From the NCBI GenBank assembly GCA_002633005.1, contig NMRA01000317.1, positions 237,366 through 301,365 on the forward strand: a stretch of 64,000 nucleotides of DNA. The letters run 5' to 3'. Numbering within the stretch: position 1 is the first letter of the stretch; each line of letters opens with the position of its first letter. The notes under the pieces are model-generated. The model did not search any database and was not told where the DNA came from. It saw only the letters and a program-made list of their open reading frames with translations. This document shows positions 606 through 61,752 of this stretch, one piece after another. Origin of the DNA: Phoronis australis. Its lineage: Eukaryota > Animalia > Phoronida. Made by a program: the position numbers and the translations under genes.

Positions 606-3600
606 TTGTTGTGGAGTCTGAGTTGAGGGCAATATCCAGAGCACTGGTCACCGACTGGAACAGATTCATTCGCTGAGTCTCACCTAAGAAATGAATACAT
701 GAACAAATAAACATTTAGTTTACAGAAAATATGGGCTAGAAAAGCGCACAATTTATACAGTTGTATAGAACTTCATTATCAATATCTCCCCTTCAGTTTC
801 AAATGCAGATATTGGTCTAGTTTCTTGTTAAGCACTCTCTGCACAGTCTTAAATCCAGCATCCCATGCACCCACATTGATACAGAAATCATTATAAATCC
901 ACCATGTTTCAAAGAGTTACAGCTGAAGTTGTTGCTGAAGTGATAATTGCTCTGCTTCAAACAAAAGCAACATGGAATGCCAGCATTCATGATAATGCCC
1001 TGGGTTGCTGCAAGCACTTTTTGTACACTGTATCTAAGGATAAACTGCAAGGTAATGTGGAACAGGCCACATTTCTAATGTTGCACTACGACCCTCACGG
1101 ACAACACAATTGGCAAATGTGTCACAGTATTCATGCATATTCTGCAATTTCTAAATGGTTAAGACAAGAACAGCAAAAAAATAATGCCCAGCATCAGCTT
1201 CATGGCAGTTATAGAACAGGTCAAAAACTCCAATGACTTTCTGTTATGTCAGTCACTTACTGACACAGTGGTGGCAACATCTTTTGGATCATGCAAACAA
1301 AATGATGAGCAATAAGCAATATATGTGTTTAGATAATAGTGCACCAGTTTGATTTACTGAATAGCACTAAACAAGAACTGTTCAACAAGTTGCCTAGTTC
1401 AGATAACCAATGTGTTTGATCCATCACAATACTCGCTTTGAATACATTTGAGTACACTTCACTTTAATGAAAACATGACTGTCTGCACAACGCAAGGGAA
1501 AAAACAAATATTCCCAAGATGCCAGGGGTGTTACTCTCAAGGAAAACTGGCTCACAGGACATGCTGCTTGCGACTTATCAAAACCAATTTCCCTACAAAA
1601 AGGGTGTCTAAATTCCATACAAATGGGTGTGTTTTCTGAATTCATTCCAGACAACAAACTGGTCATAACTCTACAAAAGGCTCCTTTCCAATCAGACAAG
1701 TTTTAAAACTGTGCTTGCAAAACATGGCATCTTTTTCATGGTTTCAGGTTTTATAGGTTAAAAAGACACCTGTCCAAAATCCCAATGTACCACTAGGGGT
1801 GTTGATTTTTTAACAAAGATGACTTTTTATTGGAAGTTCTCAACAAATGGGTCCCTTTAGTGCTTTCTACATGTTCTGGACATCTTAATTTTCCAGATGA
1901 ACCAGAACTAGTTAATATGACTGATATCAGAGCTGGGTTGCTAGTTGAGCTATCGTACCAGCTAGGTTTCAAAACTTTCAGGGTGATTTTTTCACTATCG
2001 CCAGCCACCGGCGATAACTATTGATAGGTATAGCTACCCAAGCAGACCTCCAAATATGCCCCACATTCCACGCACAGGGTGCATGAACTTAAAATCCTGC
2101 ATAATCTCAAGATTGCGTATGTGTGAATTGAATATTCATTTGGGCAATAAGGTGAAATTTTTGTTGAGTATAAAGATTTTTTTTGTAATTGTCGGCCTCA
2201 TGATCACCCATTTTCTCCTATTCCATAATTTGTGTCAAATACTCGGAAGAATATGTGAATTGTTGAATCAATCATAATGTTTGGTGAAAAAGATCACCAA
2301 TAGTTGAAAAAACTTTTGGTAAAATCAAAATTTACAATATTTTTATACATTTAATTTTTTTTTGTGCAGTGCAAATTTTTATTAACGAGAACATGATTAT
2401 TTGAGTGAACTTGTCACATTTCGTCGTGTATTCCAAGTTTACATACACGCAATCTTGAGATTAAGAAGGATTCCAAGTTCATGCACAGCAGACCAACATG
2501 CGTCTTGTCCCACTCCTAACGGGGTTTTCCGTAGATTAGCCCACTCGATGAAATGCCCATGGGCGTTTATTCAAAAAATTATGCCAAATACATGCCCATG
2601 GGCGTTTATTTGATACGTGTTACAACTTGCGGTGTCAAGTGTGCAGTGCAGTGGGACCTTTAATTTTAAATTTTCCTCTTAAAAGCCCACTTAGTGTCAA
2701 CTTTTCATAACAAATTTAGTTTTGTGGAGCATTTATCATTTATGAAAACAAACAAGGCGTTGGCGAACTATGTGTTACAGATGTGCTTCCGGTGAATCAT
2801 ATGAGCCTTTGTTATCTACTTGCTAACGGGCAATTGCCTATTAGCTGAATGGTTAGCACGCTCGCCGGTTTTATGAGAGTCGCTGGTTCGATTTCCGGGT
2901 CGGGTAATCTCAGCTATTACTACAAATGGCGCAGTTGGCAAACGGATGATCTACTGATGAAGCACTGTCAACTAGTACCCGCGGACCTCGGGACGGCGCG
3001 CATGGAGGGTTCCAGGAGTCAAGAACCTGTATGAGAGACTACCTTGTATTCACCTGTGTTGTGGTGGTAAAGGTACCAAGGGATGCTGATGACCTGCATG
3101 CGAGACATCCTGGTGTTCACCTTCCTGGTGGCGAGCCTGTTCCGCAGGAAAGGGGGGAATGTTGTAGATGTGCTTCCAGTGAATTATATGAGCTTCTGTT
3201 AGCTACTCGCTAAGGGGCAATTGCTTATTAGCTGAATGCATGGTTAGCACGCTCGCCGATTTTATGGGAGTTGGTGGTTCGATTCACGGGTCAGGTAATT
3301 TTGGCTATTACTTAGTATTACTACATATGTCGTCCGGTTACCTATTTTCGTCAGGCTCCAAAGTTCGTCCGCCATCTTGTTTCGCGTGCAGCGCAACCAC
3401 GCGGGACTTAGCGTTCCAATTTGGAGTGCTCGTCTGCACGTTAGGTACTAACTTATCGGAAGAGACACGTATCAAAGTAATGAGACAAAAATCGGTGAGT
3501 TTACCGATTGTTTTTTAAAACCACTTAAAAATCAGTAGATTTTACTAATACACTTTTTTGTGCGTTTTCAGAAGATGTTTTCGAATTTAAATTTTCTTCC

Positions 3601-4531
3601 GACGGGACACAAAACATGATCCAGGGTTTGTTTATGCAATGTATCTGTTTTTCCCAGGCACTAGTAGGATCTAGAAGGCCAAAGGAAAAATCCGCAGACA
3701 AATGCGATACGCTGGGTTCTTAACATTTTGCCTCACGCATTCACCATTAAACTGCATTGAAATGTTGTCCAATTGGCTTTTATTGGAAACCACAGTGCAG
3801 AGCTCAACATCAAAGCTTCAAATCGAGTTTATGTCAATAAAAACAGGCTGTTGCAATTTTCATTACTTCGTTGGCCTTTTTCTGCATGTTTCTCAGTTTT
3901 TACAAAAGGGGGCAGCATATGACGAACTTAGGTTTCACAATAAAATGGCTGCCGAAGGCAGTGCACATTTGAAATAACTCGGCACAAATTAAAGAAAACT
4001 TCCGAATCGATGAATGCGGTATATCTGTGAGAGTTAAATCGAATCCTATTCAGATCATAACTTTGAAGTGGAATAATTCGGTGAGTACAACAGCAAGTCG
4101 GTTTTATGCTTAGGCGGACGAACATTGGGTTCCCCAGTATGCATTTTAATAAAAAAAGTTTTAAAACGCAGCTTTAAGTAAAAGAGTGTCAAGTCAAGCA
4201 AAACTATGGCTTTCCATTTACATGCCTCCTTTTCCAAATAAACGCCTGGGCGTTTATTTGGTGTTGCTAAATCGCCTGAAATTTTTCATTTTCCGAATAC
4301 ACGCCCATGGGCTTACCTACGGGCAAGGCCAAAACACAAGGTCATTTCAGTTTCAAATGTCAAGACTCAGTAGTCCAAATCACAATTACCTAAAGCAGGA
4401 GAGGGTTCATCCTGTACGTATGTGAAGTGTGAGTATTTTCTACAGAAACTGTAACCAACTTGAGAGCGATTTTTCAATTCAGGCAATAAAGGTCTTGCTC
4501 TTACAAGTGTACGCATAACCCGTAAGGCCAT
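606..4531 (-). CDS. BCKDHB: Branched-chain 2-oxo acid dehydrogenase E1 beta subunit, mitochondrial; 5' part only (coding exons 4531-4390 and 683-606), gene continues beyond the left edge
   Basis: Exon 1 gives MALRVMRTLVRARPLLPELKNRSQVGYSFCRKYSHFTYVQDEPSPAL-G (Arg-rich transit-peptide-like start) with a GTAATT donor. Exon 2 (78 nt, TTAG acceptor, GTAAG donor, matching phase 1) gives GETQRMNLFQSVTSALDIALNSDSTT, matching the BCKDHB signature HFTF..GQTQKMNLFQSVTSALD. Confidence 0.93.
2529..4322. mobile_element. Probable non-autonomous DNA transposon in BCKDHB intron 1 that hosts the TRIM
   Basis: Imperfect inverted ends (CCGTAGATTAGCCC... and ...GGGCTTACCTACGG) with repeated subterminal palindromes of the AATAAACGCCCATGGGCGTTTATT type at 2550-2612 and 4236-4312. 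No clean TSD. Confidence 0.5.
2773..3325 (+). mobile_element. Non-autonomous miniature LTR retrotransposon (TRIM) with tRNA-like LTRs
   Basis: LTR1 2773-2924 and LTR2 3160-3325 both run TGT...ACA; TATG TSD on both sides; PBS TGGCGCAGTTGGCA at 2927; PPT AGGAAAGGGGGGAA at 3146-3159; A-box TAGCTGAATGG (2842-2852) and B-box GGTTCGATTTCC (2885-2896) inside the LTR. Confidence 0.9.
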
Positions 4532-4809: not shown

Positions 4810-5705
4810 GTAAGCGTGTCTTGAATCCGGATCTTAAATGTTGACGCTGTAACTGATTGCTGTAAAACGTATACCCGGTATAGTACTTTAGTTACACATT
4901 GACAACATTTTAATGACTTAATGTTTATTAGGTTGAAGTCTCTGCAACTGATTGGTTTTTGCCTGGCAGGTCTGATGTTGGTCGGATATGGTGGTCCCTG
5001 ATGCTGATTTAGGGAAACAGTTTCCTCCACTGAATTACGGGCATGTTATTCAGTAAGTACCTGGTTCACTAAATCAGAGACCTCTATAAGGTGCTTTATC
5101 CAACCAATGCCTGATCCATCGGTTTGGTGACCCATTTTGAAAGTGAAAATAAAACCATGACTGAGGACTTTTTTACGACAGATTGGGGTTTTTAGTACTA
5201 GAGTCAAACGTCCAAAACATTTGGCCAAAAGGCACATTGCCACTTGGCGAGTGTATCTTACAGTCATCTGTTTGTACTCCATGCCCGGAAGTAACGTGAT
5301 ACACCAGTCCTTCACTTTCCACAGGCAGACAAACCTGGGTACAGAGCTCAGAAGCACCCTAGTGTCCTGTAATATGGCCTCATCAACCCTCTCCTTATTG
5401 TGTTATGGATCCACCACCATCAAGTCAGTGCCCTCTCCATCTGCCACTTAGAACAATACGTCTCGGGGGGGTTTTCATGAGACTACACTTAGTTTGCATG
5501 GTGTCAAGTTAGTATTAATTGAAATATCTGGTGACGCCAAGACTTGAATTTGGGCACTTAGCTTGAGAGTCAAGTGTCCAAATTGTTCTGCTAAGAGGTA
5601 ATTGCTACTTGGCAAGCAGCTTGGATCTAGTCTTCATTGGACTGTATGTCAAGTTCTCAAGTTACATGATACAACTGTCCATAACTCATATACTTTTTTA
5701 GTTGG

Positions 5706-6005
5706 TTCAGCAGGTAATAGAACCAGGTCTCCTAAACCAAAATCTAACATCCTAACCAATTGACCAAAGAGCAACTGCCCGTTAGTAAACAATTTTGAGA
5801 CACCCTTGTAGCGTGACACAACGGGAAGTCAGGTGATGCAACTCTTTTCCCTTTGGAAAACAGGTATGCTTCAGATCTAAGCAACACATCTGTACTATTT
5901 TAGTTTAGCCAGGAATTGAACCAGAGACCACGTGAACCACAGTCTAGTATCTAAACTGGTTGACCACAGACCATGTGTTCGTTAGGGAGCGATTTAGAGA
6001 AGCCG
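5706..6005 (-). mobile_element. Two decayed tRNA-like, LTR-like repeats related to the TRIM LTR
   Basis: Minus strand reads CTAACGGGCAGTTGC-TCTTTGGTCAATTGGTTAG...CTGGTTCTATTACC (5790-5706) and CTAACGAAC..TGGTCAACCAGTTTAG...CTGGTTCAATTCCTGG (6005-5905). Shares the CTAACGGGCA[A/G]TTGC pre-A-box motif with the TRIM LTR. Confidence 0.55.
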
Positions 6006-6797: not shown

Positions 6798-16542
<9,745 letters not shown>

Positions 16543-25300: not shown

Positions 25301-28300
25301 GAAAAAGCCTTTAGAACTTGATTCTTTACTTTATGCCAATCTGCCACGACTCAGGTCACATGACCAAGTAAATTTAGCAAAACAAGAAAGGCCCATCCAC
25401 AACAAGGCGATAGTATCAATAACAGATCCATATTTCATTTGACGTAAACGTTCAAGACGAAATCTCAAAAATGCCGAGTTACACTTTTTAATAGCCTTTT
25501 CATTTTCACTTTATGCAACTTTTGAATTTTTTCATAAAATCGCAAGTCTTGTTTCTCTTTGCTAGCCCCAAACAAAAGTGAAACATTTGAAAAACAAATC
25601 CTAACAGTGTATTGCAGCACAGTGCATACAGGACAGTGTATTGCAGCACAGTGCATACAGGATAGTGTATTGCAGCACAGTGCATACAGGACAGTGTATT
25701 GCAGCACAGTGCATACAGGATAGTGTATTGCATCACAGTGCATACAGGATAGTGTATTGCAGCACAGTGCATACAGGATAGTGTATTGCAGCACAGTGCA
25801 TACAGGACAGTGTATTGTAGCACAGTGCATACAGGATAGTGTATTGCATCACAGTGCATACACGATAGTGTATTGCAGCACAGTGCATACAGGATAGTGT
25901 ATTGCAACACAGTGCATACAGGATTAGAATATGATCTGACTTTTCTGAAATATTCCATTTTTCTAGGATCCTACAAAACTTTAAAGTAGGCAGACATTAT
26001 CCATTTCAAAGTAAGATTTGAACAAACATGATGACCACACAATCAACCTGCTTTCTAAAATTTCAAACCCACCGTCAAAATCAACTCGAGATGTGTGATG
26101 AATGTGGAATGTGATGTCTTCATCGACAACAACATCAATATCCTCGCCTTGTGATTGGCTGTTATCGGCATTGACCTCCTTGACCTCATCGTCGCCCATG
26201 GCAACCTGTACAGCTTCTTCTTCGGCACTATTATCCTTCCTAGACTGCACTTGATTTTCTTCCTCAACTTCGGATTCAGATGAGAACTGGGGAGGATTCA
26301 GTTTGGGCTCAGTCGCCTCAAATGCCAACAAAGGGGGCAAGTTAGGGTCTCCAAGTCTGCGAATAAACATAATCAGAATTAGTAATATAACTGTTTATAG
26401 CTGACTGTAAGGACGTACGCACATATCATTAGTTATAACTCATATAACTTCTAGTGTTCAATACAGTATGTTTTCAATACTTTCCCAGTATTGAATAATA
26501 TTCTTAAGAAATACTGTGTAGGCACTGGCATGTAAGCACTAGCAGAAGTGAGAAGTGATACTGTATTGCATGGTCAGAACTGGAACAAGCACAGTGACTG
26601 TCCATTATTGTAATGCTCGATGTTCGCTTGGTGATGTCCGTGAAAAAAGGTCCTCTACTTAGTATCAGAACAGATTAAGAATGGAACAGATTCACAGGCT
26701 CAGTGGCATTAGTGAGATACGGGTACAGTGTGACCACCTGAACGCATGCATTTATGCACTAGGAGCTTTAGATTACCAGCGCCACCTTGTGAATGTCCAG
26801 CTCATCATAGCTATTCTCAATATTATATTGTAACAGTAAATGTCTCTCGTGTTTTTTCAAAAACATTACCAAGTTCAAACTGACAGATAGAATACTGTAA
26901 CCGCAAATCCAGGAATCAGTCGAAATCATGAGCCATAGTTGAACAGAGACGGTGGATATGAATTACCTGCCATTAACGAGCGCTTCCTCTCAAGTGACAG
27001 CCACAAAGTGGTGTTTGACAACCACCAAGCACCGCCCTCAGGAGGACACGCGACAGAAATTCCCCGCTAATACCTCGACGAAGGGCCCAGGACGGGCCCA
27101 AATGCAAGGTTCTCAAACATAACAATCTTCATTTCTACACCAAGCAATGGCGCCATCTATGAACAATCATTCCACAAGATCAGACTTACTTGTAAGGATA
27201 TGGACTCCTGTTCAACTGTACTTTTACAGGACTTTCTTCCAGACTGGACTCACTCGGCAAATCAAACCGTATATGTCTGTCAGACGTAGACACTCTTGTG
27301 GTCACAGGGGGTGATGGATCATGGCCCATTTCCGATATGAATTCGGCGCCAAACGTGGGCTTGCCAAAGTCAAGTGGTTCCTGAGGACTACGAGGTTGGG
27401 AGTTGGTCACCAACAAACATGGTGCTGGCTTCGTCTCTGTCAAAAACTCGGCACCAAATTCGGGCTCAGCAAAAGCAATCTTCTTACGCTGGAACCTGGG
27501 TGGCGTGGACAGACCGACGTCAGAGTTGATAACACCTGAAACAAAATACACACGTGGTGCTCAACATTCATCAATCAGTATTACCTCAAGGCAGAAAAAT
27601 TGTACATATCTTGATAGATGTGACAAATTAAGTCTTATACTTACACAACAAACAGATATTGATCAGCCGCTGAATGGCTTTTGATATTCAGGAAAATGGT
27701 ATTCACAGACTCTTTTACACATCAAACAATGAGAGGCGCACAGCTTGATGGCATCCAGTAGCCAACACCACAGCCAGTCACAACAGTTGTTAGATGACAT
27801 GTACCAAGTAAACTACATGAGCACCAAGTACTTACTAGTAATCTGCACATGCTTGACTGATGGTTCGCTAGTAGGAGTGGGACTGGTGGGCTTACGGACT
27901 GCTTTCCTCACTTTCAGAATAGACTGTGGGGTAGCTTGTGGGATGCTGGTCTGCTGAGCTCGAGCGGGCGATATCCGCTTGATGACGGGGGATTCCAACA
28001 GCGAATGAGCTTCATTGAACGAAACCAGCCTTCTGAAATACATGAAGCAGACATTGATGTCAGTTGATCCAGTGAAACTTAAAAAATCAGAAATCAAACA
28101 AGTTGAAAAATATTCAACTGGTGGTATATATCACAAATACTTAAATAATTGAATTGTTTCAGAATGACTTTGTAACACAACATTAAACAGAAATTTGTAC
28201 AATGCAAAAGCCATTTTTCCTAGTCTATTCAGAGTACCTGTTGGAATGCCAAGTCTTGACATTTTCAGCTCTGCCAAGACACATAGCCCTTTATTGATAA

Positions 28301-31300
28301 TAGACAGATCGTAGACCAAACAATTACTATCTCGAACATCAATGTAACAGACCTAATTATTATTATATTGTCATTCTAAACATATGGGAACCTTCAACCA
28401 TTCCACACGAGTATTTTTAGGACTGTCTCCCGAGCTGTGCAATAACTTAATGTGTACCTTTTCAAAGCAGCTACACCTAAATTATTCCCAGGTGAGTATG
28501 CCTGTGACTTCTTTACAGGTGACAAAGACGACGCTGCTTCAGGGACCGTTCTTACTGCGGGAAGCCCTACAGATGGTACTGCTTCAGGAGACTTCTCTAC
28601 TGTGGGGAACACAACATCTACAACATCTCTGAAAAAAGGAAGGCGCAGAACTAATAGAGATTGTGGGTACACTCATATACACATGACACTTCGGCCGGGT
28701 CAACGAGCTAACACATCTCGTAAGTTCTCGATTACGACTTCTGGCTTTTAAGCCAATCAGACGTCCAGGCCGTTTTATCTGGGGGAATCGGCGATGTGCA
28801 GCCTCTAATTAACGACGGAAATGCAGTCAAATACACGTGTGTTCATAGTCAAGCCAAATTGTGTCCTAAATTAGGGACATTTTAACATAGTCTGGAAGTA
28901 TTCTCATAATGCAACATAGATGCGTTTACCTGACTCGATTGGTGAGCCTGGGGGTTACAGGAGTACACACAAATGGCCCTGTCCCTAAGGCACCAGCACC
29001 CCCTTTGGGAGATTCCGCCACTTGAGGTTTGGTCTCATGCACCTTCTCCAGGACACTCTGAATGAGGCTTGAGTGAGAGATCACGTGACTCTTCTTGGCT
29101 TTGTTTACTACAGTGGACAAGGGCTTGGGACGACTGACTAGAAATGATAAAAACAATTTTCAGTTAGTTTCAAAATTTCAGTGTCAGAATGAATTTGATT
29201 TTAGTGTTACAAGAATATGGGATGGGCCATGGCAAATTTAGGCAAAAATACACAAGATTTTCATAAAATAAAAAAGCCAGAACAAATGACACCTGAATAT
29301 GATTGTCAGTAGCAGACTAAGACTAAAATCGAAGCTTCTTACAAATTAAGTACAATACTGTTATATCTTTTTGTCTGCAGACTCTAAACATTCCACATAT
29401 AAAAAAGCCAGTTCAAGAAGTACTCACCTTCTCGCCTCAATAAATGCGACCTTTTCCTAAACTGTTGACTTCCCCCGTAAGTCAGTTTCCGTTGAACACT
29501 GGGTAGAACGCGGGAATAACAGTCCACTATGGCACTCCGCGCGGTCGATCTTTCTCTGGTGCGCACATCTTTTTCACTCTGCAAGTGAATGGTTGTTATG
29601 CACAGGCATTTTAGCAACAAGAAACTCATAGCCTACAAGGTTGCAATAGCTGGAGCAATACAGTCGCAAGCAACAACAATAATTTTGCAAAAACTATGCG
29701 TAATGTACAAATACTTAAATGATTAAATCTTTTGATGGGTGGTAAATAACAAATCAAAGCGCTTCAAGTTATAAATCCTGTTCTCACACAACCCTTGCCA
29801 TTCTACACTTCAATGCACCCCCTAAACACGCTCACTTACTGAGCAGAACCAATACTTACCTCTAGGCTCCCATTGAGTTACACCGTACAGCATCCACATA
29901 TTTTGCCCTCTGTAGATAGTGCATGACAAGTATCTCCTTAGTACCAATACTCACCACTAGGTGCCCCTTGAGTTGCTCATTACACCGTACAGCATCCACA
30001 TATTTTGCCCTCTGTAGATAGTGCATGACAAGTATCTCTTTAGTACCAATACTCACCACTAGGTGCCCCTTGAGTTGCTCATTACACCGTATAGCATCCA
30101 CATATCTTGCCCTCTGCAGATAGTGCATGACAAGTATCTCTTTAGAGCCAGGCTCACTACTCTCCTGCAGGTAGTTTATAAAATACTTCTCTTCTAATTC
30201 ATTCATAGGCAGTTGTAGTAAGGCGTCAACTGTCTTGGCTGTCAGAGAGAAACAGATATTTAGCCACAACAGAGTAGGGAACGCTGACAGTATTTGATGC
30301 AACATAAGAGCCAGGGCTCATCTATTCACATGAGTAACACAACACATGATACAGAGTACATTTTCTTCCTCTCCGCTCTGAGGTATTTGTCCAGTCAAAA
30401 AATTTCAAAAGTGATTATGTGACCGACCACTCATACATCACTCTTTACCACATGAATGAAACTATTCAAGTTTGATGCACCTTTTAAGGAAAACAAGGGT
30501 TGTAAAAAACAAAAACCACAAAACAAGGGACATCTGCAATAGTAGCCACATACCAAAATACCACAGCACCCTATCTGATTCCGTGATATTTACCCACAAT
30601 GCTGCGCACCAGTAAGGCACATGTCACCCAGATGTACACTGATGACATGTTAAACACTATTTTACAAAAAAATCCAAAATCAGTATAGATTTACTAAAGC
30701 AGTGAGTTGCCATGCTGACTAAAAGCTGTAAAGTTGCACGGGGTGTAACAAATTGTTCATTCTTCCAATCCCACTCAAGAGACATTTAGCAGCTTAACCT
30801 TTTGAGCACTAGGCCATTCATACAATGAACTTTTCTAATCCCGCAAAAGAAGAGAGTTGAATCTGTGATGTGACTATACCACCCCACTGAGTTTAGAATA
30901 CAATTTCATATATTAGTTATAAAGGCAAGAACTGTTGGGACATACTTTGTTGACAGCCGAGAAAAAAATGAGAAAGTATATCTTCAGCACTGAAAGGATC
31001 CCTGCATACCCTCTGGTAATGGAATGCTTCTGAAGTCAGTCTGAAAGATAAAACATAACTTTATTGTACAATTTCATTCAAGCTTTGGCAATTTTGCCTG
31101 CCTTATGAACACAGAGTGTTTATGTGAATACCATGCGTGCTGCTTGAGTCAGTCGAAAAGATGTTCCATGACATCCATGTATTACACCATAACAGCACAA
31201 AGCTGTCACAGCGCCACCTGTAACATAAAATGTTCACCACAGTAACCACTTAATGACAGTATACACTTGGTAAACGAGCAACACTCCAACAATCCCAATA

Positions 31301-37300: not shown

Positions 37301-40300
37301 ACACGGTTAAGATCTCTAGGGAATGCACAACAAAGTCATGTACTTTGGGATAATACAATATTGCTAAATGAGACTGTTTACGAGTTTAAAAGAAGTTTGG
37401 CTATATTTATAGTTAAAGAGCAGTTATGAGTTACCACCAATAACTGGTTCCCATCCTAAAAGCTCGCAGTTTTGCTATATTGGATGTGTATAAAAACCCT
37501 GCTTTGGGGGATGAAGTTTATAGGAAATTGTACAATGGAGAATTGTCACACAGATTAGATTGGTCAGCAATACAGTAATAATCAAAGGAATTAAATCTGT
37601 TCAACTGGACTATGGTATTTACGGATTAAATGCCTTAATAGACACGGAAGTGGCAGGTTTGCTCAGTCCACTGCTTGGAATGCCACTATAGATCACAGTG
37701 GGAAGCTGCATCAAGTGTCCAGTCATTTCCACCATTCCTCAGGAAGGAAACCAGATGCTGCGGAGGGCTTAAGGATTTTAGAAAGTAACACAGTCCAGCT
37801 CAACAGGTTTAATGTCTTTCATTATGAAGCAACACAGTACCTGAGTGAGCCTGGCATTTGTGCATGATACCACCGATTGATATCAAACAACGCCAAGTGG
37901 CATGTTGTTCGGGCCTGGGGGTCATCTGCCACTGCCTCCCAGGTGAAGGCACACAAACCCAGGTCAGGACCATGGAAGCCTGAAAAACAGAGAGAAGAAA
38001 GTAGGCGTGGGCTATAAACAGTACAGCGAAATATACACCATACAGTAAACACGAGAACGACCATGGAACGCTATGTGACTGAGAGCATTCATTAAACATT
38101 GTGGAAACCATCTTGGTGTACATTCTTTGACGTGCTTGGCTGGTCGAATTTGTTGGCTTACAATGTTCAAAACAAACAAGTCCCAGGTAAAATGAGTTGG
38201 TTTAAACCGGTTTAGCTACAGTTTACAATAATTACAACACGTTTGTTTTAACGCAGTTCAGGTAAACAATATAACATAAATAGCAAGAGAAGTTACATAC
38301 GCGACTACAACCTGTTCAAACAAATGTAATATTGGCACTGGTTCACAATTGACCTATCGCCACGACTTTGAGCGACGGCTTAACTGACCATTTAGAACTC
38401 ATCATTCTTGACACACCAAGCTGCCATTTTATCCGACAAACAACCCATTGCCGAGTAAAACTTATTGTTTGTTAGTTGACATTACGCAAGGGGGCGGAGC
38501 TTACGATAGGTCAATTACCCAGCTGTATTTGAAAGGACAATAAGGTTTACTATAATTGTACAAGTGAGCACTCTTGTTGTGTCACCATTTACCTTCATCA
38601 AAAGAGTCTTCATTTGACAGCCTTTGGGAATGACTGCTGAAGGGGTCTTCAATAGTGAAGCAGGACAACACACGGCTGCAAGCTGTGCCTGGACTGTTGG
38701 TCAGCATGTGGTCAAACCGTTGACCAATGGACATCATGTCCTGAAACAGAGGAGTGTACTCATAAATGGACATGTAGTTAAAGCCCTTTTCCATAAAAAT
38801 GATCCTGTGACATCAGTAAGCTGTAGCAGTTGCACTTGATCACATAATAAAACACACCTGTGGTCACTTCACAACAACTCTCTTGCACAAAATTTTTAAA
38901 AAGTTATACGTAAATCACATCTATGGCAAATATTGAAAGCGACTCATTCCTTTAATGACGCAACAACCTTGTGTAGGAAAGATCTGGAATGCAACAGCTG
39001 TACTATTCACATATACAACTAAAAGTGTAACAGATATTGTACCTACCTCATAATAGACCCCGAACTCTTCCGTCCATGATTTCCTATTGTATACCATTTG
39101 ATAAAGCTGTATAGTGGAAATCCATTCATCCCTACAAGAGACACTGTGGCAATAAGCATAGGGAATAATCAAGTTGACAACAAAACCACTGTCATATGTC
39201 ACACATAGCTGAACAGACCAAATGTGACCCACCACGACAAAATGAGTCTTAAGTCGGAAACTCTATTTGCTGACAAGACTGCAAACAGTCGCTATCGGTT
39301 AAAATTAGGTCAAATTTTTTTATTGCAGATTATGATTATTTATTCATTCTACTTCACAAAACAATACTTTAANAGGTAAGATTAACCGCCCAGGGCGGTT
39401 GCCTGTCGTAATAAGCGCCCATGTTCAGTTAACCGCCCCTCCCCCCCGATTTCTTGAAATTTCACGTTTAAGCGCCCATGTCTGGTTAACCGCCCACCCC
39501 CGATTTTTTGGGTTCGCCAATTTAACCGCCCAGGGCGTTAACCCGAACGATTACAATACATAAATTACATCTATGGCAAATGTTGAAAGCGACTTATTCC
39601 TTTAATGATGCAACAACCTTGTGTAGGAAAGATCTGGAATGCAACAGCAGTACTATTCACATATACAACTAAAAGTATAACAGATATTGTAGCTACCTCA
39701 TAATAGACCCCGAACTCTTCCGTCCATGACTTCCTATTGTATACCATTTGATAAAGCTGTATAGTGGAAATCCATTCATCCCTACAAGAGACACTGTGGC
39801 GATAAGCATAGGGAATAATCAAGTTGACAACAAAACCACTGTCATATGTCACACATAGCTGAACAGACCAAATAGACGTCATGTAAATAGTGCAATCCTC
39901 TCAGTGGTGGAGCCAAAGCATGCCTGGTGCGTTGCAAAAGGCATTAGATCACCTGCTACTATATAAAAATACTTATTAGATATGCCTGCTAATACCCATT
40001 CTTTGAATGTCTAAAACACGGTACAGTCATTTTTGGCTTGGGCGACATCGCATTTCAAGCACCTCTGGATGGTTACACATATGTATAACAGTTACCACTC
40101 GACGGTAAGACCACACAACAATGAAAGCAATGTTCTTGCGTTTTGCTGCACCTCTACCAACACACAACTTACAAAGGGTCCGAGGGGAGTGGGCCCCGGG
40201 CTACCCACAAGTAGCAGAAACTCCTGGGGTCATTTTCGGGCTCCTGATACGCCATGTGAGTAACTGGGGCCATGTCCGGGTCGCATCGACTGCTGTAGCT

Positions 40301-44852: not shown

Positions 44853-46424
44853 GTCTGTAACAGATTCCACTAACAGACACATACAAAGTACACCTGTGGG
44901 TGATACCTTCTCCCGATTAAATGTTGTTCAAAACACTTTAACTGTGTACAAAGTAACACACTATTCCACTTCAAGATCTTTAATCTCAGACAAAAGAAAC
45001 AATAGCATTATTTTCTGTATCCGAACACCCAGGAAATTTTAATGAATCATAATAAATGTGGAAATTCCAGCTCACTACTTTTCTGAACATTGGACCATAT
45101 GGACGACTTCAAAACAAATGAAAAAGGTAATCCCAAGGTGTCTTAATATGCTCAACTGGCGAGGACTATACTGTTAGCTGAACCTAAGAATCCCATAGAT
45201 ATTCCATATTATTCACAACCATTCTAATCACTGGAAAGTACTTATCCTGACTTCAACCCTTCTGTCTAAAGTTGGCCTATACAATGAGACTTCCAAGATT
45301 ATAACATGATTTGCTGTTGTCAACAAATGTAAATCCTGAGGGCTTCAGTTCTAGTGAGTTTTAAACGCAGTATCTTTAAATTACAATTTTACATTTTTAT
45401 ACTTATTAATGTTATCATATAATTCACAAAGCTCCAACAAATTCACGAAGTTCAAAGAAACTTTTCATTTCTAAGAGCACCTAACGTCACAAAATTGGTC
45501 CGACTAAAGTGAAATTAGGTTTGATTTCTGGGCTTGGAAATGACTGACACTTTATTAAAGTGGTTCTCAACAGGCTCAACAAGCTGGATCATTTTGTGCA
45601 CAGAGCATGGTCAAGAATTGATCAACTGTCAGTTCTTTCCATCACACAGTTCCCATACGAGTAAGAAACAAGCCGTTTTACATAGGAATATAGTGTTTCA
45701 AAATGAGTTTCCTTGATGGAAAGCAAGTTTAAAGCAGAGCCAAGTACACAGGTCAATCAGAGTGCACATCTGAAGACTAGAGTCCAATGCGTAAAATCAT
45801 TAAGCACACTCAAATAATGAAGTGATTATTTCTCAGCTTTTTATGTTGATCCACGTCTCCATTGTAAAATCCCCATCCAAAAATTTCAAGGGTTGTCTGC
45901 TGAGTGACCAATAAAAACAACTGGGCAGCACAATATTCTGGAACACTAACAGACTCCACAAGTTGACTAGACCGTGCCACATCTTAATATGACGTGAATG
46001 TCGCTAAATTTTCTTAAAATTATGGTTCACCTGGGCTAAATCACAAAAGGGACAGGGATATTCATGGACTGTGTGCTCAAGATAAAACAGAAATGTTCGG
46101 AGGGATGGGGGAAATCCCCCATCTGCAAACCACGCCAAGAGGAAGCAGCAAAGACGGGAGACATGTCTAGGCGTTATTTTGCACGACTCCGAGAGCTTCA
46201 CAATAAACAAGATTTGGTGAGAACTGACTTGCATGTGAAAAATCAATAAAATTGACATCAATGCCCCAAAAGTCCCTTTGGAGTGGGGAGGGGCTCGATT
46301 ATGTGAAACAGTTTCATCGACTGAATAATTTAGTGGTTGGCCGATTCTCAAAATGAGAGACTGGAATGCATGTAGGCAAGAAAGTGAATAGACAGTGACC
46401 ATAATCTCTACTGGCTCCGCAGTA

Positions 46425-46945
46425 GTGAATGTGAAGCTTCTATAGGCACTTCAAATGCCGGAAGATTTCCGGCGAATTATGCCTCGCACTGTTTAAAACA
46501 TCAATGCTACGTTGTTATAAATACCTTTTGTGCATATATGAACACCTTAGGAGGCCGTCGATGTATTTAATTCCTTCCAACTTGAACAAATACTCCCGTT
46601 ATCAAACTTTTTCTTCGAGCAGTCCCTCGTTCAGTTCCCAAAATCGGTAACTAACCATTTTTGACACTGCGTGCCAAGAGATATGACGTCATACCACCTG
46701 GTGTGCACAGAGTTAAAAATGGTGAGTTACCGATTTTGGGAGCTGAACGAGGGATTGCTCGAAGAAAAAGTTTGATAACGGGAGTATTTGTTCGAGTTGA
46801 ATGGAATTACTTACATCAACGGCCTCCTAAGGTGTCCCTTTGTGAGCAAAAGGTATTTATAACAACGTGACGTTTTAGTCAGTGCAAGGCATAATTCAAC
46901 GAAAAACTTCCGGTATAAGAAGCGCTTCTAGGAGCTCCACCGTCC
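46425..46945. repeat. Long imperfect palindrome (foldback element) centred on TATGACGTCATA
   Basis: Arms are reverse complements, e.g. GAACAAATACTCCCGTTATCAAACTTTTTCTTCGAGCA and TGCTCGAAGAAAAAGTTTGATAACGGGAGTATTTGTTC; centre at 46687/46688. Confidence 0.93.
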
Positions 46946-47199
46946 TATGTGTCAGTAGGACGGTGGTCACTGTCTAGCACTAGCAGGTGAATTGACACAT
47001 GTCACAGCACTACACCAACACTCCCAACAGGCAATTTGGTAATAAGTTAATGAGTTTTTAAGCAGTCTCCTGGTCTCAACAAAAACAGTGTCGATGTCAA
47101 TTCCTAAGTGAAAGGGGTTTGACAAACTAGTGGCATTCACTAGTTGCACGAAGAAGTAAGTTAACTCTACCGGTTCAGACACACGGAACACACGCGTTT

Positions 47200-59666: not shown

Positions 59667-60950
59667 TTACACGTCAAGTATCTCGAATAATTTTTTCACA
59701 GGAGTAACAATATGTCTTACAAGCGACCTTAGCCAGCTGTCATTGGAAGCATTCTTATCATCCTTCTGAACCATCTTGTGTAGTTTACGGTCTTCCTCCA
59801 TTTCATTTTCTTCCACAAGGTGGCGGTCCAGTTGAACATGAACTGGGGGCCTGGCACTATTTTTCTTGTGAGACTTGAACACGACTGACTTGTACCGTCT
59901 ATGCTGGTATTTATTTTCCGCGTTGACGGCAGGAGACTCTCCCACACGCTGGTTTCCTGGAAATTTAATCAGCCTGGTTTTGGATTCATTGTGCTTCACA
60001 CTTGGTGAATGTGTAGACAGTAGCTGAATACCACTCGACTCTTCTTTACGCAAACATTGTTTCTTAGAAGAGGGACCTTTACCTCTACCTGCATCTTTTC
60101 TCTTCACTCCACGGTACACATCACTAAATTTTCGTAGAGGAGTAAGCTCATTTTCTGGGGTTGGTCTTCGAAGTGCATTGCCAGCAGTGGTATCTGCATA
60201 GCTCATCCCCTGTGAACCTCCCTGCCTCGGATTGTCAAAGCAGTTGTTTCTTTCTGCTGAAACTAAAGCAAGCGCTTCACTAAAACACAAACCAGGCTTT
60301 TTAAACGTGTTCGCAGGATCTGTGTATTTCATTCTCGGTGTGGCATCTTGCACGGTTCTCTTCATGGTTGGTGTTGCGATGCCAATGACACTTCTGGGTT
60401 TAGTTTGGTACTGTCCATTCACAAAGGACCACTTACCAGGTTCCAGAACTCTTACTGGGACACTTGGTGATTTGGTCCAGTGATATTTTCTTTCTGTTTT
60501 GTACCTCGACGAACACGGAGATGGTGCAACCACACAGCGAGACCGGTCACTGCAGGTTACAAAGTGCCTAGCTTGCTTGTTACGTGGAGTTTCCTTATTC
60601 AAACTGTTGCTGGGTGCAGGATTTCTGTTTGTTACAGAAACATTCTTATACACGTCTAACACATACATGTGAGAGTGAACTTGCATCGGTCGGTCATATT
60701 TTAGGAACTCGTAATGTTCGACTTCATCCCAAGCAGCAGTATGAATATAAATAATAAAATGCCTTGTAGAAACTGGATGAAATGACTCCATTGTAACGAC
60801 AGCTCTGATGACTTGAACCAAATCATGATGATCGCTGTCGGAAAGCTGATCAGTGGAAATATGGAAGTTGAGTTTAACTTTAAAGACTGTCGCTCCTATT
60901 GTTAATACAAAAGTGTTTCTGCATTTAAAATCCAAACATAGATAAGCCAT
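59667..60950 (-). CDS. MAJIN: Membrane-anchored junction protein homologue (meiotic TERB1-TERB2-MAJIN telomere complex); single coding exon, 427 aa
   Basis: The first ~105 aa align co-linearly with the MAJIN core as I recall it: NTFVLTIGATVFKVKLNF vs ETRFLHAGPNVYKFKIRY; DLVQVIRAVV..FHPVSTRHFIIY..WDEVEHYEF vs ELEDSVRVVL..LQPFATEHFIVF..WERVSHLKF. A basic disordered linker and a C-terminal amphipathic helix (WLRSLVRHIVTPVKKLF) follow. TTTTCAG acceptor 16 nt upstream of the ATG. Confidence 0.8.
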   Translation of the reverse strand: MAYLCLDFKCRNTFVLTIGATVFKVKLNFHISTDQLSDSDHHDLVQVIRAVVTMESFHPVSTRHFIIYIHTAAWDEVEHYEFLKYDRPMQVHSHMYVLDVYKNVSVTNRNPAPSNSLNKETPRNKQARHFVTCSDRSRCVVAPSPCSSRYKTERKYHWTKSPSVPVRVLEPGKWSFVNGQYQTKPRSVIGIATPTMKRTVQDATPRMKYTDPANTFKKPGLCFSEALALVSAERNNCFDNPRQGGSQGMSYADTTAGNALRRPTPENELTPLRKFSDVYRGVKRKDAGRGKGPSSKKQCLRKEESSGIQLLSTHSPSVKHNESKTRLIKFPGNQRVGESPAVNAENKYQHRRYKSVVFKSHKKNSARPPVHVQLDRHLVEENEMEEDRKLHKMVQKDDKNASNDSWLRSLVRHIVTPVKKLFEILDV

Positions 60951-61752
60951 TCCTTACAGTCCATTCCTGAAAATAAGGATTGTGTTAATCATATATGTAT
61001 ATTGACAACAGATTAGGTTGAACAAGCTTGCATTTGTAATGATGTACTGTTCAACTTAATACATGATTTCCCCCAGTCTCTGAAATGGTGTTCTATACTT
61101 GTGTCTCAAGCGATTGATGACCTTAACTGAAGTAAAAGCAACATCAGGGTTAGAATCAGAGGGATAAAATGTCATTAATCCTCAAACCACACAGTTCCGT
61201 AACAAGAACAGAAATAAAACATAAAAGTCCCTGTCAGTAATTTTACAAAATGGTAATTTACCATAATAGTTGCTCAGGGAGTTGCATAGACATCAGACTT
61301 TCTGTGGCGGGGTCCTGGATGTCTCAATTTTGGAGCCAAATATCGGATCCATTCCCCTCCATTAGTCAAAACTTATGCCAAAAAGATTTGCATGCAAGTG
61401 AATGGGAAAGCCTGCACCATTCACCCCAGAGTGTCCAGCGAAGTCCTCGGTTCATCAAAGGCTTGATGGTACCGTCACGGATTGAAGTGAGCTAATCTCT
61501 ATTGATGGGCTTGGCTGAAGGTGCTGCATGAGATAATTGCGGTCGCAAGCCAACACACTTGTTTAGCGTACAAGTTTCAAAGTAAAAAACCAGACAACAA
61601 GTAAGGTAAAAGACCAGCATGTCTTTTTGAATTGAAAAGAAAACATTAGACATCTTTCAAAATTTTAAAATCTAGGCATTATAAGAGAAATTAGCGAATA
61701 GATTGTCTTTTCTTCAGCACCACAGCTAAGCAACTAGCATTAATGTGTGAAA

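What the first reader, a model, noticed from the sequence alone, without database searches (positions are those of the whole stretch)
2773..3325. Complete miniature LTR retrotransposon whose LTRs carry a tRNA-derived Pol III promoter
Seen: two LTRs of 152 and 166 bp (TGT..ACA), a 4-bp TATG TSD, a PBS 2 nt after LTR1, a PPT abutting LTR2, a 235-bp non-coding interior, and an A-box/B-box pair with tRNA-like spacing inside each LTR. Established: TGGCGCAGT[C/T]GG is a tRNA-Ser PBS and 4-bp TSDs are typical of Ty3/gypsy integrases; plant Cassandra TRIMs carry 5S rRNA in their LTRs. I also recall tRNA-bearing animal TRIMs being described as 'Ajax', so the class may be known even if this family is not. 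Inference: a SINE-like promoter on an LTR chassis, transcribed by Pol III and mobilised in trans by a gypsy partner. Visible LTR-LTR differences, including two small insertions, suggest an older insertion.
Basis: partly seen in the sequence, partly recalled or inferred. Interest (0 to 1): 0.8.

Follow-up and report, generated by a model that had tools for sequence, protein, structure and literature searches.

The report
tRNA-bearing mini retrotransposon (Helenus family)
This is a real, aged copy of an abundant 553-base gene-less jumping element whose end repeats carry tRNA-type promoter boxes; it is a new family of the Helenus type described in 2024, likely transcribed by RNA polymerase III and likely copied by a gypsy partner, so it extends a known kind rather than opening a new one.

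Summary
Observation confirmed base for base: TATG duplication, LTRs of 152 and 166 bp, tRNA-Ser primer site, purine tract, 235-bp interior, A and B boxes in both LTRs. Public DNA runs show a multi-copy family, and reads from other loci stop at the same LTR ends. Other copies of the host repeat carry TATG once, so the duplication is real. The class is published: tRNA-bearing TRIMs are Helenus (Kojima 2024, PMC10886601); Ajax carries 5S rRNA. No family in the paper's Data S1 matched 11 exact motifs at the expected places; the closest by eye are the mussel Ser-primed Helenus-2 families. The host is an invertebrate whose ATE1 groups with a ribbon worm on long branches. This scan found the type before on other DNA (81 notes, at least 17 genomes, hold the search words). 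Pol III transcription and the gypsy partner are inferred, not shown. Two extras: a two-state hairpin just upstream of box A that recurs, by eye, in bivalve, nemertean and coelacanth Helenus and is not mentioned in the paper's text; and one contig that closes exactly one element unit. Verdict: new member of a known kind, interest 0.3.

The parts
2769..2772 (+). 5' target-site duplication TATG
   Evidence: sequence; other copies of the host repeat run on from here without the element (loose ends at 2771-2772)
2773..2924 (+). 5' LTR, 152 bp, TGT..ACA
   Evidence: reads from other loci stop at 2924 and begin at the LTR start (table 7)
2808..2845 (+). two mutually exclusive hairpins sharing the arm 2822-2830: stem 1 with 2808-2816, stem 2 with 2836-2845 (overlaps box A)
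   Evidence: 8 of 9 and 9 of 10 positions pair, G-U counted; folding energy not better than shuffles (z -1.13); role inferred
2842..2852 (+). box A (TAGCT..TGG)
   Evidence: fits TRGCY and YGG of Kojima 2024
2869..2872 (+). T4 run between the boxes; candidate leaky Pol III terminator
   Evidence: present in both LTRs; role inferred
2885..2895 (+). box B (GGTTCGA..), 43 nt after box A
   Evidence: most other copies read C at 2894
2927..2940 (+). primer-binding site complementary to the 3' end of tRNA-Ser (AGA/TGA/CGA)
   Evidence: 122 of 140 tRNA-end matches are Ser; 12-14 of 14 bases pair
2925..3159 (+). 235-bp interior without coding capacity, with a 67-bp-period internal repeat (3025-3055 / 3092-3122)
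3146..3159 (+). polypurine tract, 14 purines
3160..3325 (+). 3' LTR, 166 bp, with private 4- and 10-base insertions; boxes at 3229 and 3276; T4 at 3260-3263 and 3299-3302
   Evidence: the 4-base insertion is missing in reads of other copies (table 4)
3326..3329 (+). 3' target-site duplication TATG

Best explanation
This is an aged copy of a multi-copy, non-coding LTR retrotransposon of the Helenus type, likely transcribed by RNA polymerase III from the A and B boxes in its 5' LTR and likely reverse-transcribed and integrated in trans by a Ty3/gypsy element that uses a tRNA-Ser primer. Shown: structure, Ser primer site, purine tract, 4-bp duplications at two loci, many genomic copies, LTR copies with unrelated flanks. 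Inferred steps: (1) TFIIIC binds the boxes and Pol III starts near 2835, about 7 nt before box A (tRNA numbering, recalled); (2) it reads through the weak T4 at 2869-2872, crosses PBS, interior and PPT, and stops at the same T4 in LTR2 (3260-3263), giving an RNA of about 425 nt with a terminal repeat of about 38 nt, as Cassandra does with an 18-nt repeat; (3) the partner's particle packages the RNA, host tRNA-Ser primes the minus strand, the PPT primes the plus strand, and the partner's integrase makes the 4-bp duplication. Most speculative step: the arm 2822-2832, present in the RNA only at its 3' end, would pair with the RNA's first 11 bases and hold the ends together for strand transfer, like CYC5/CYC3 of Ty1. 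This copy has decayed in place and is probably inactive; a younger repeat later inserted at its 3' duplication.
For: Structure and statistics. Family: 2,560 and 3,225 contig pieces laid on 2400-3700 from two DNA runs of one sample, with up to about 90 different contigs over single LTR positions and 10-59 over listed interior positions. LTR ends confirmed by reads that leave at 2924 (43 and 100 reads) or enter at 3160 (53 and 54 reads); one other locus has GCCC on both sides (X10), and a 394-base contig holds a solo LTR with that upstream flank (X6 record 17). Empty site: other host-repeat copies continue TATG then CATTT, and the window resumes that way at 4138. Primer. Ageing: at 13 of 16 listed LTR positions the majority letter equals the other LTR of this copy. 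Class definition, 4-bp TSD and gypsy-type PBS of animal Helenus: PMC10886601, whole main text read. One contig of run X5 is 416 bases = one 386-base unit + 30, its ends overlapping by 30, which a terminally redundant unit-length RNA would give if k is 31 (recalled).
Against: No transcript with a defined start or end is seen: in three RNA runs (18-19% of each read) 66-73% of laid reads run on into unlike sequence, both orientations occur, and the flanking repeats are covered as deeply, which fits passive read-through. The T4 in LTR1 lies before the PBS and should stop part of Pol III; the difference tables are cut, so its state in the family is not certain. The tRNA origin rests on two short boxes (negative). 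No autonomous partner was found, and no host assembly was available. X5 being RNA is the tool's guess, and tandem arrays or many near-identical DNA copies would give the same closed contig. The hairpins do not fold better than shuffles.
Confidence: 0.8

Rival explanations
1. An ordinary TRIM whose LTR once took up a tRNA-SINE head; the boxes are passengers and the genomic RNA is made by Pol II, from the LTR or by read-through from host genes.
For: RNA reads look like read-through on both strands; T4 runs lie inside the unit; many published Helenus LTRs carry a T-run right after the tRNA-like part, before the PBS (seen by eye in Data S1); Kojima states that promoter function is not validated.
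Against: U3 upstream of the tRNA-like part is only about 62 bp; both boxes are kept in both LTRs and the family majority is closer to the box B consensus at 2894; the boxes are what is conserved across Helenus.
Confidence: 0.13
2. The element replicates through a circular RNA or from tandem arrays, as retrozymes and arrayed Cassandra do.
For: The closed 416-base contig; contigs that go back about 350-390 bases (tables 5); arrays are reported for LTR-11_DR and Cassandra (PMC7215508, passages); decayed tandem LTR-like units at 5170-5870; earlier scan notes report twister-bearing relatives (unchecked).
Against: No ribozyme family matches this copy at E up to 10; the two CTGATGA words in the interior are changed at 2955 and 3086 in most other copies; back-joints arise from two similar LTRs alone.
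Confidence: 0.05
3. Not a retrotransposon: two SINE copies or a local duplication inside a nest of repeats.
For: The site is a nest of three repeats, and TATG occurs three times in it.
Against: TGT..ACA ends, PBS, PPT, repeated interior, sharp LTR ends at other loci and a second 4-bp duplication.
Confidence: 0.01

Closest known systems
Helenus (TRIMp3), Kojima 2024, PMC10886601; whole main text read, supplement parts 1, 5, 6, 7, 10, 11 of 11 read, figures not seen
   Same: Under 1 kb, two LTRs with TRGCY/YGG box A and GGTTC box B, PBS, PPT, no genes, 4-bp TSD as in animal families, no functional tRNA, no self-priming, solo LTRs.
   Different: None of 11 exact motifs matched at the expected place in Data S1; this Ser primer-site sequence is not in Fig. 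S2; the host does not look like a listed species with annotated proteins.
Helenus-2_MyGa, Helenus-2_MoPh, Helenus-2_LimFor (mussels; LTR/interior 144/226, 156/268, 141/251)
   Same: By eye: similar sizes, a tRNA-Ser primer, an interior GAGGTTCC..GAGT word followed by ACCTG, an A/G-rich PPT, and the hairpin-palindrome before box A; Helenus-2_MyGa begins TGTTGTAGA like LTR2.
   Different: Different Ser isoacceptor end, little other similarity; the comparison could not be scored because the paper's sequences cannot be loaded.
Ajax (Kojima 2024) and Cassandra (as described in PMC10886601 and passages of PMC7215508)
   Same: TRIM with an internal Pol III promoter in the LTR; Cassandra starts and ends inside the small-RNA part of its LTRs.
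   Different: They carry 5S rRNA (box A, IE, box C); Ajax has 5-bp TSDs and a Leu primer; Cassandra is a plant element.
biv-TRIM of bivalves (PMC6934838, passages read)
   Same: Animal TRIM with solo and tandem forms.
   Different: No canonical PBS there; a clear Ser PBS here.

Membership tests
Helenus | TRIM: under 1000 bp, two LTRs, no protein-coding capacity | tested here: met
   553 bp; LTRs 152/166; six-frame translation of the 235-bp interior
Helenus | PBS just after the 5' LTR, complementary to a tRNA 3' end | tested here: met
Helenus | PPT before the 3' LTR | tested here: met
   14 purines 3146-3159
Helenus | Box A (TRGCY, YGG) and box B (GGTTC) in each LTR at tRNA spacing | tested here: met
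   2842/2885 and 3229/3276; 21 of 20,000 shuffles
Helenus | Sequence similarity of the LTR to a tRNA beyond the boxes | tested here: inconclusive
   ARAGORN, Rfam and alignment to 81 mostly Ser tRNAs negative on this decayed copy; no host tRNA set available
Helenus | 4-bp TSD in animals | tested here: met
   TATG here with an empty-site check; GCCC at a second locus, its two sides seen on separate reads
Helenus | Interspersed multi-copy family with solo LTRs | tested here: met
   tables 1-3 and 8; table 7
Helenus | tRNA-like part does not prime its own PBS | tested here: met
   no 5-base stretch of 2835-2924 is complementary to the PBS
Helenus | Pol III transcription (proposed, not validated in the paper) | not testable with these tools
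   RNA runs of unspecified library show read-through only
Helenus | Gypsy partner with the same PBS | tested here: inconclusive
   no host assembly; 5 viral-contig matches show no LTR repeat, and the two with a full-length primer match no retroelement domain
Helenus | Identity with a named Repbase/Dfam family | not testable with these tools
   Repbase and Dfam not available; Data S1 searched with 11 exact motifs, 2 hits of one motif, neither at a PBS
Ajax / Cassandra | 5S rRNA-derived promoter in the LTR | tested here: not met
   no 5S match in Rfam; tRNA-type boxes instead
Ajax | 5-bp TSD and tRNA-Leu primer | tested here: not met
   4 bp and Ser
Retrozyme | Self-cleaving ribozyme in the LTR | tested here: not met
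   no ribozyme family at E up to 10 on this copy; only about 25 bases follow box B; a decayed copy can hide a fold

The most novel reading that the evidence does not exclude
The two-state hairpin before box A marks one ancient lineage of animal Helenus shared by this host, bivalves, nemerteans, coelacanth and ostariophysan fishes, against the published view of separate origins per host group, and it is a conserved signal that pairs the two ends of the Pol III RNA so that a very short terminal repeat suffices for strand transfer.
Probability: 0.3. Interest if true: 0.55.

Novelty: new member of a known kind. Interest (0 to 1): 0.3.

Why it matters
It adds an abundant Helenus family in a host that appears not to be in the 2024 list, with a Ser primer. 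The open question for the class is how a promoter near the LTR's end yields a replicable RNA; this element gives a concrete prediction (start near 2835, stop at 3260-3263, 38-nt repeat, ends paired by a conserved arm) that 5'/3' mapping can test. If the upstream hairpin is homologous across phyla, much of animal Helenus has one very old origin or has spread horizontally.

Tried and rejected
No host assembly is held, so no copy census. ARAGORN and Rfam found no tRNA, 5S or ribozyme. Exact LTR motifs gave nothing in metagenome or viral contigs. The tRNA-end pattern gave nothing in viral contigs. Partner search: 5 matches in viral contigs, no LTR repeat, no retroelement domain in the two tested. 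Runs labelled organisms B and C hold pieces of the element but also near-identical copies of the neighbouring repeat (1 difference in 266, 2 in 242 bases), so they may hold the same species' DNA and were not counted as wider host range. No listed holder of the stretch is on record as RNA. A place where 8 molecules end at 3224 appears in one of three RNA runs only and was not used. A loose pattern for the hairpin motif is not specific (mean 1.9 hits in shuffled windows), so it gives no support. Hammerhead reading of the two CTGATGA words rejected. Host: the MAJIN-like ORF has no close relative; the Atlas gave no answer; the first tree timed out and the FastTree tree left the host unplaced. An 18-base probe for the host repeat's continuation found nothing at 3 mismatches; the continuation was found by reading. 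Paper searches showed no later survey of Helenus hosts; only the open-access library was searched. A search of scan notes by sequence and by 'nemertean' gave nothing.

Full report
Observation. The LTRs differ at 20 of 152 columns (K2P 0.149) and by two small insertions in LTR2. The A/B box pair (43 nt start to start in LTR1) occurs on the + strand of the window only in the two LTRs, once elsewhere on the - strand, and in 21 of 20,000 shuffles (box patterns recalled). Beyond the boxes this copy is not detectably tRNA-like: ARAGORN, Rfam, folding and alignment to 81 fetched tRNA genes were negative.

It is a family. No assembly is held, so I laid public runs. Two DNA runs of one sample gave 2,560 and 3,225 contig pieces on 2400-3700; up to about 90 different contigs cover single LTR positions and 10-59 cover listed interior positions. 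Summed depth over the LTR is in the tens of thousands against 4-15 for single contigs in X1; the tool warns that this is no copy number, so I read it only as hundreds to thousands of copies with LTRs in excess of interiors. RNA reads from other loci leave the alignment at 2924 and enter at 3160. One locus has GCCC on both sides (separate reads in X10), and a contig of X6 spans a solo LTR with the same upstream flank. At 13 of 16 listed LTR positions the majority letter equals the other LTR of this copy: the two LTRs started alike and decayed separately. The difference tables are cut (111 and 125 rows not shown).

The duplication is real. The element sits in a MITE-like repeat whose other copies read TATG and go straight on with CATTT. 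In the window that continuation resumes at 4138-4146, after a second, younger repeat at 3330-4137. The simplest order is host repeat, then this element duplicating TATG, then the younger repeat at the 3' copy.

Primer. The LTR cannot prime itself.

Host. Neighbouring genes are ATE1, ELYS and a MAJIN-like ORF. An ML tree of nine ATE1 exon pieces with 30 chosen homologues groups the host with Lineus longissimus (96/92) on long branches, at 52% identity; a FastTree run on 55 rows gave no supported place. No phoronid, brachiopod, annelid, echinoderm or amphioxus row was in either tree, so I say only: an invertebrate, probably a lophotrochozoan near nemerteans. The lack of any close relative of the 427-aa ORF argues against a species with annotated proteins, such as most hosts in Kojima's Table S1; the three published nemertean and three Lingula families do not resemble it.

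Known class. Kojima 2024 (PMC10886601; main text read whole; supplement parts 1, 5, 6, 7, 10, 11 of 11; figures not seen) defines Helenus as TRIMs with tRNA-like LTRs, in six animal phyla, with 4-bp TSDs and gypsy-type primer sites; Ajax is the 5S type. Promoter function is stated there as unvalidated. Eleven exact motifs found no matching family in Data S1; unread parts 2-4, 8 and 9 (mostly fungal and wasp families) were covered only by those searches. By eye the nearest are the mussel Ser-primed Helenus-2 families. A 2026 meeting report still cites only the 2024 paper (PMC12859917, passages); other searches showed no later survey (listings). Repbase and Dfam could not be searched. Earlier notes of this scan report Helenus in many other genomes, an annelid among them (unchecked); none matched this sequence.

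Mechanism. Inferred: Pol III starts near 2835, reads through the T4 at 2869-2872, and stops at its twin at 3260-3263, giving about 425 nt with about 38 nt repeated; a Ser-primed gypsy element supplies particle, RT and integrase. For: both boxes are kept, and one contig of run X5 is 416 bases, spanning 2876-3296, equal to a 386-base unit plus a 30-base overlap, the form an assembler gives to a terminally redundant RNA (k = 31 recalled). Against: X5 is only guessed to be RNA, and arrays, circles or many similar DNA copies give the same contig; in three true RNA runs 66-73% of laid reads run on into unrelated sequence, both orientations occur, and the flanking repeats are as deep. No partner was found. 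No ribozyme was found, a lead taken from two earlier notes.

An unreported feature. Directly before box A each LTR can form two exclusive stems that share one arm: stem 1 pairs at 8 of 9 positions and stem 2, which takes in box A, at 9 of 10 (G-U counted). The single mismatch of stem 1 in each LTR (2815, 3214) is a place where most other copies carry the pairing base. A like arrangement (GCTA, a short GG..CC palindrome, then TTAGC or TTGGC of box A) is visible in 31 of 51 bivalve, 3 of 3 nemertean and 2 of 2 coelacanth families, in variant form in most fish families, and in 0 of 3 Lingula families (my count by eye; exact-word counts). The paper's text has no 'hairpin', 'palindrom' or 'inverted' and favours several origins. 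The stems do not fold better than shuffles, a loose pattern for them is unspecific, and the cross-family comparison could not be scored. If real, the shared arm at the RNA's 3' end would pair with its first bases, as CYC5/CYC3 cyclise Ty1 RNA (PMC7969010, passages).

Verdict. A genuine, decayed copy of a new family of Helenus: new member of a known kind, interest 0.3. The most novel reading, one old animal lineage marked by an end-pairing hairpin, has probability 0.3 and would deserve 0.55.

Noticed in passing
window 5170-5870, - strand: Three decayed LTR-like units with the same palindrome-plus-box-A motif. Units starting at 5673 and 5303 (370 apart) enclose a PBS-like site at 5539-5528 of a different tRNA type and a purine-rich tract: an older, second Helenus-like family in tandem form. 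LTR1 aligns to each unit above all 200 shuffles.
   Followed up: partly
window 3330-4137: A very abundant, young non-coding repeat with subterminal inverted arms (3358-3373 / 4113-4128), inserted at the element's 3' duplication so that TATG occurs three times; contigs match it with 1-2 differences. Its ends recall CryptonV-type elements (recalled, not tested; listing only).
   Followed up: partly
window about 2520-2772 and 4138-4320: MITE-like host repeat with inverted arms 2555-2579 / 4288-4312, split by the two insertions.
   Followed up: partly
window 9059-16536 (+), 21235-43771 (-), 59667-60953 (-): ATE1 exons, ELYS exons and a 427-aa single-frame MAJIN-like ORF with no close database relative.
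   Followed up: partly
window 29845-30145: Part of an ELYS exon is repeated three times in tandem, in frame.
   Followed up: no
window 46389-46976; 38906-39873; 25604-25924; 2079-2486: A 590-bp palindromic repeat, a 318-bp direct duplication at 97%, a tandem array, and a 49-bp inverted pair.
   Followed up: no
L139:1974-1992 and L140:3380-3398: Two viral contigs hold an 18-base match to a tRNA-Ser 3' end without LTRs, perhaps an attachment site.
   Followed up: no
window 2773-3325: 7 of 30 listed differences from the family majority are CpG-type changes, a weak hint of methylation.
   Followed up: no
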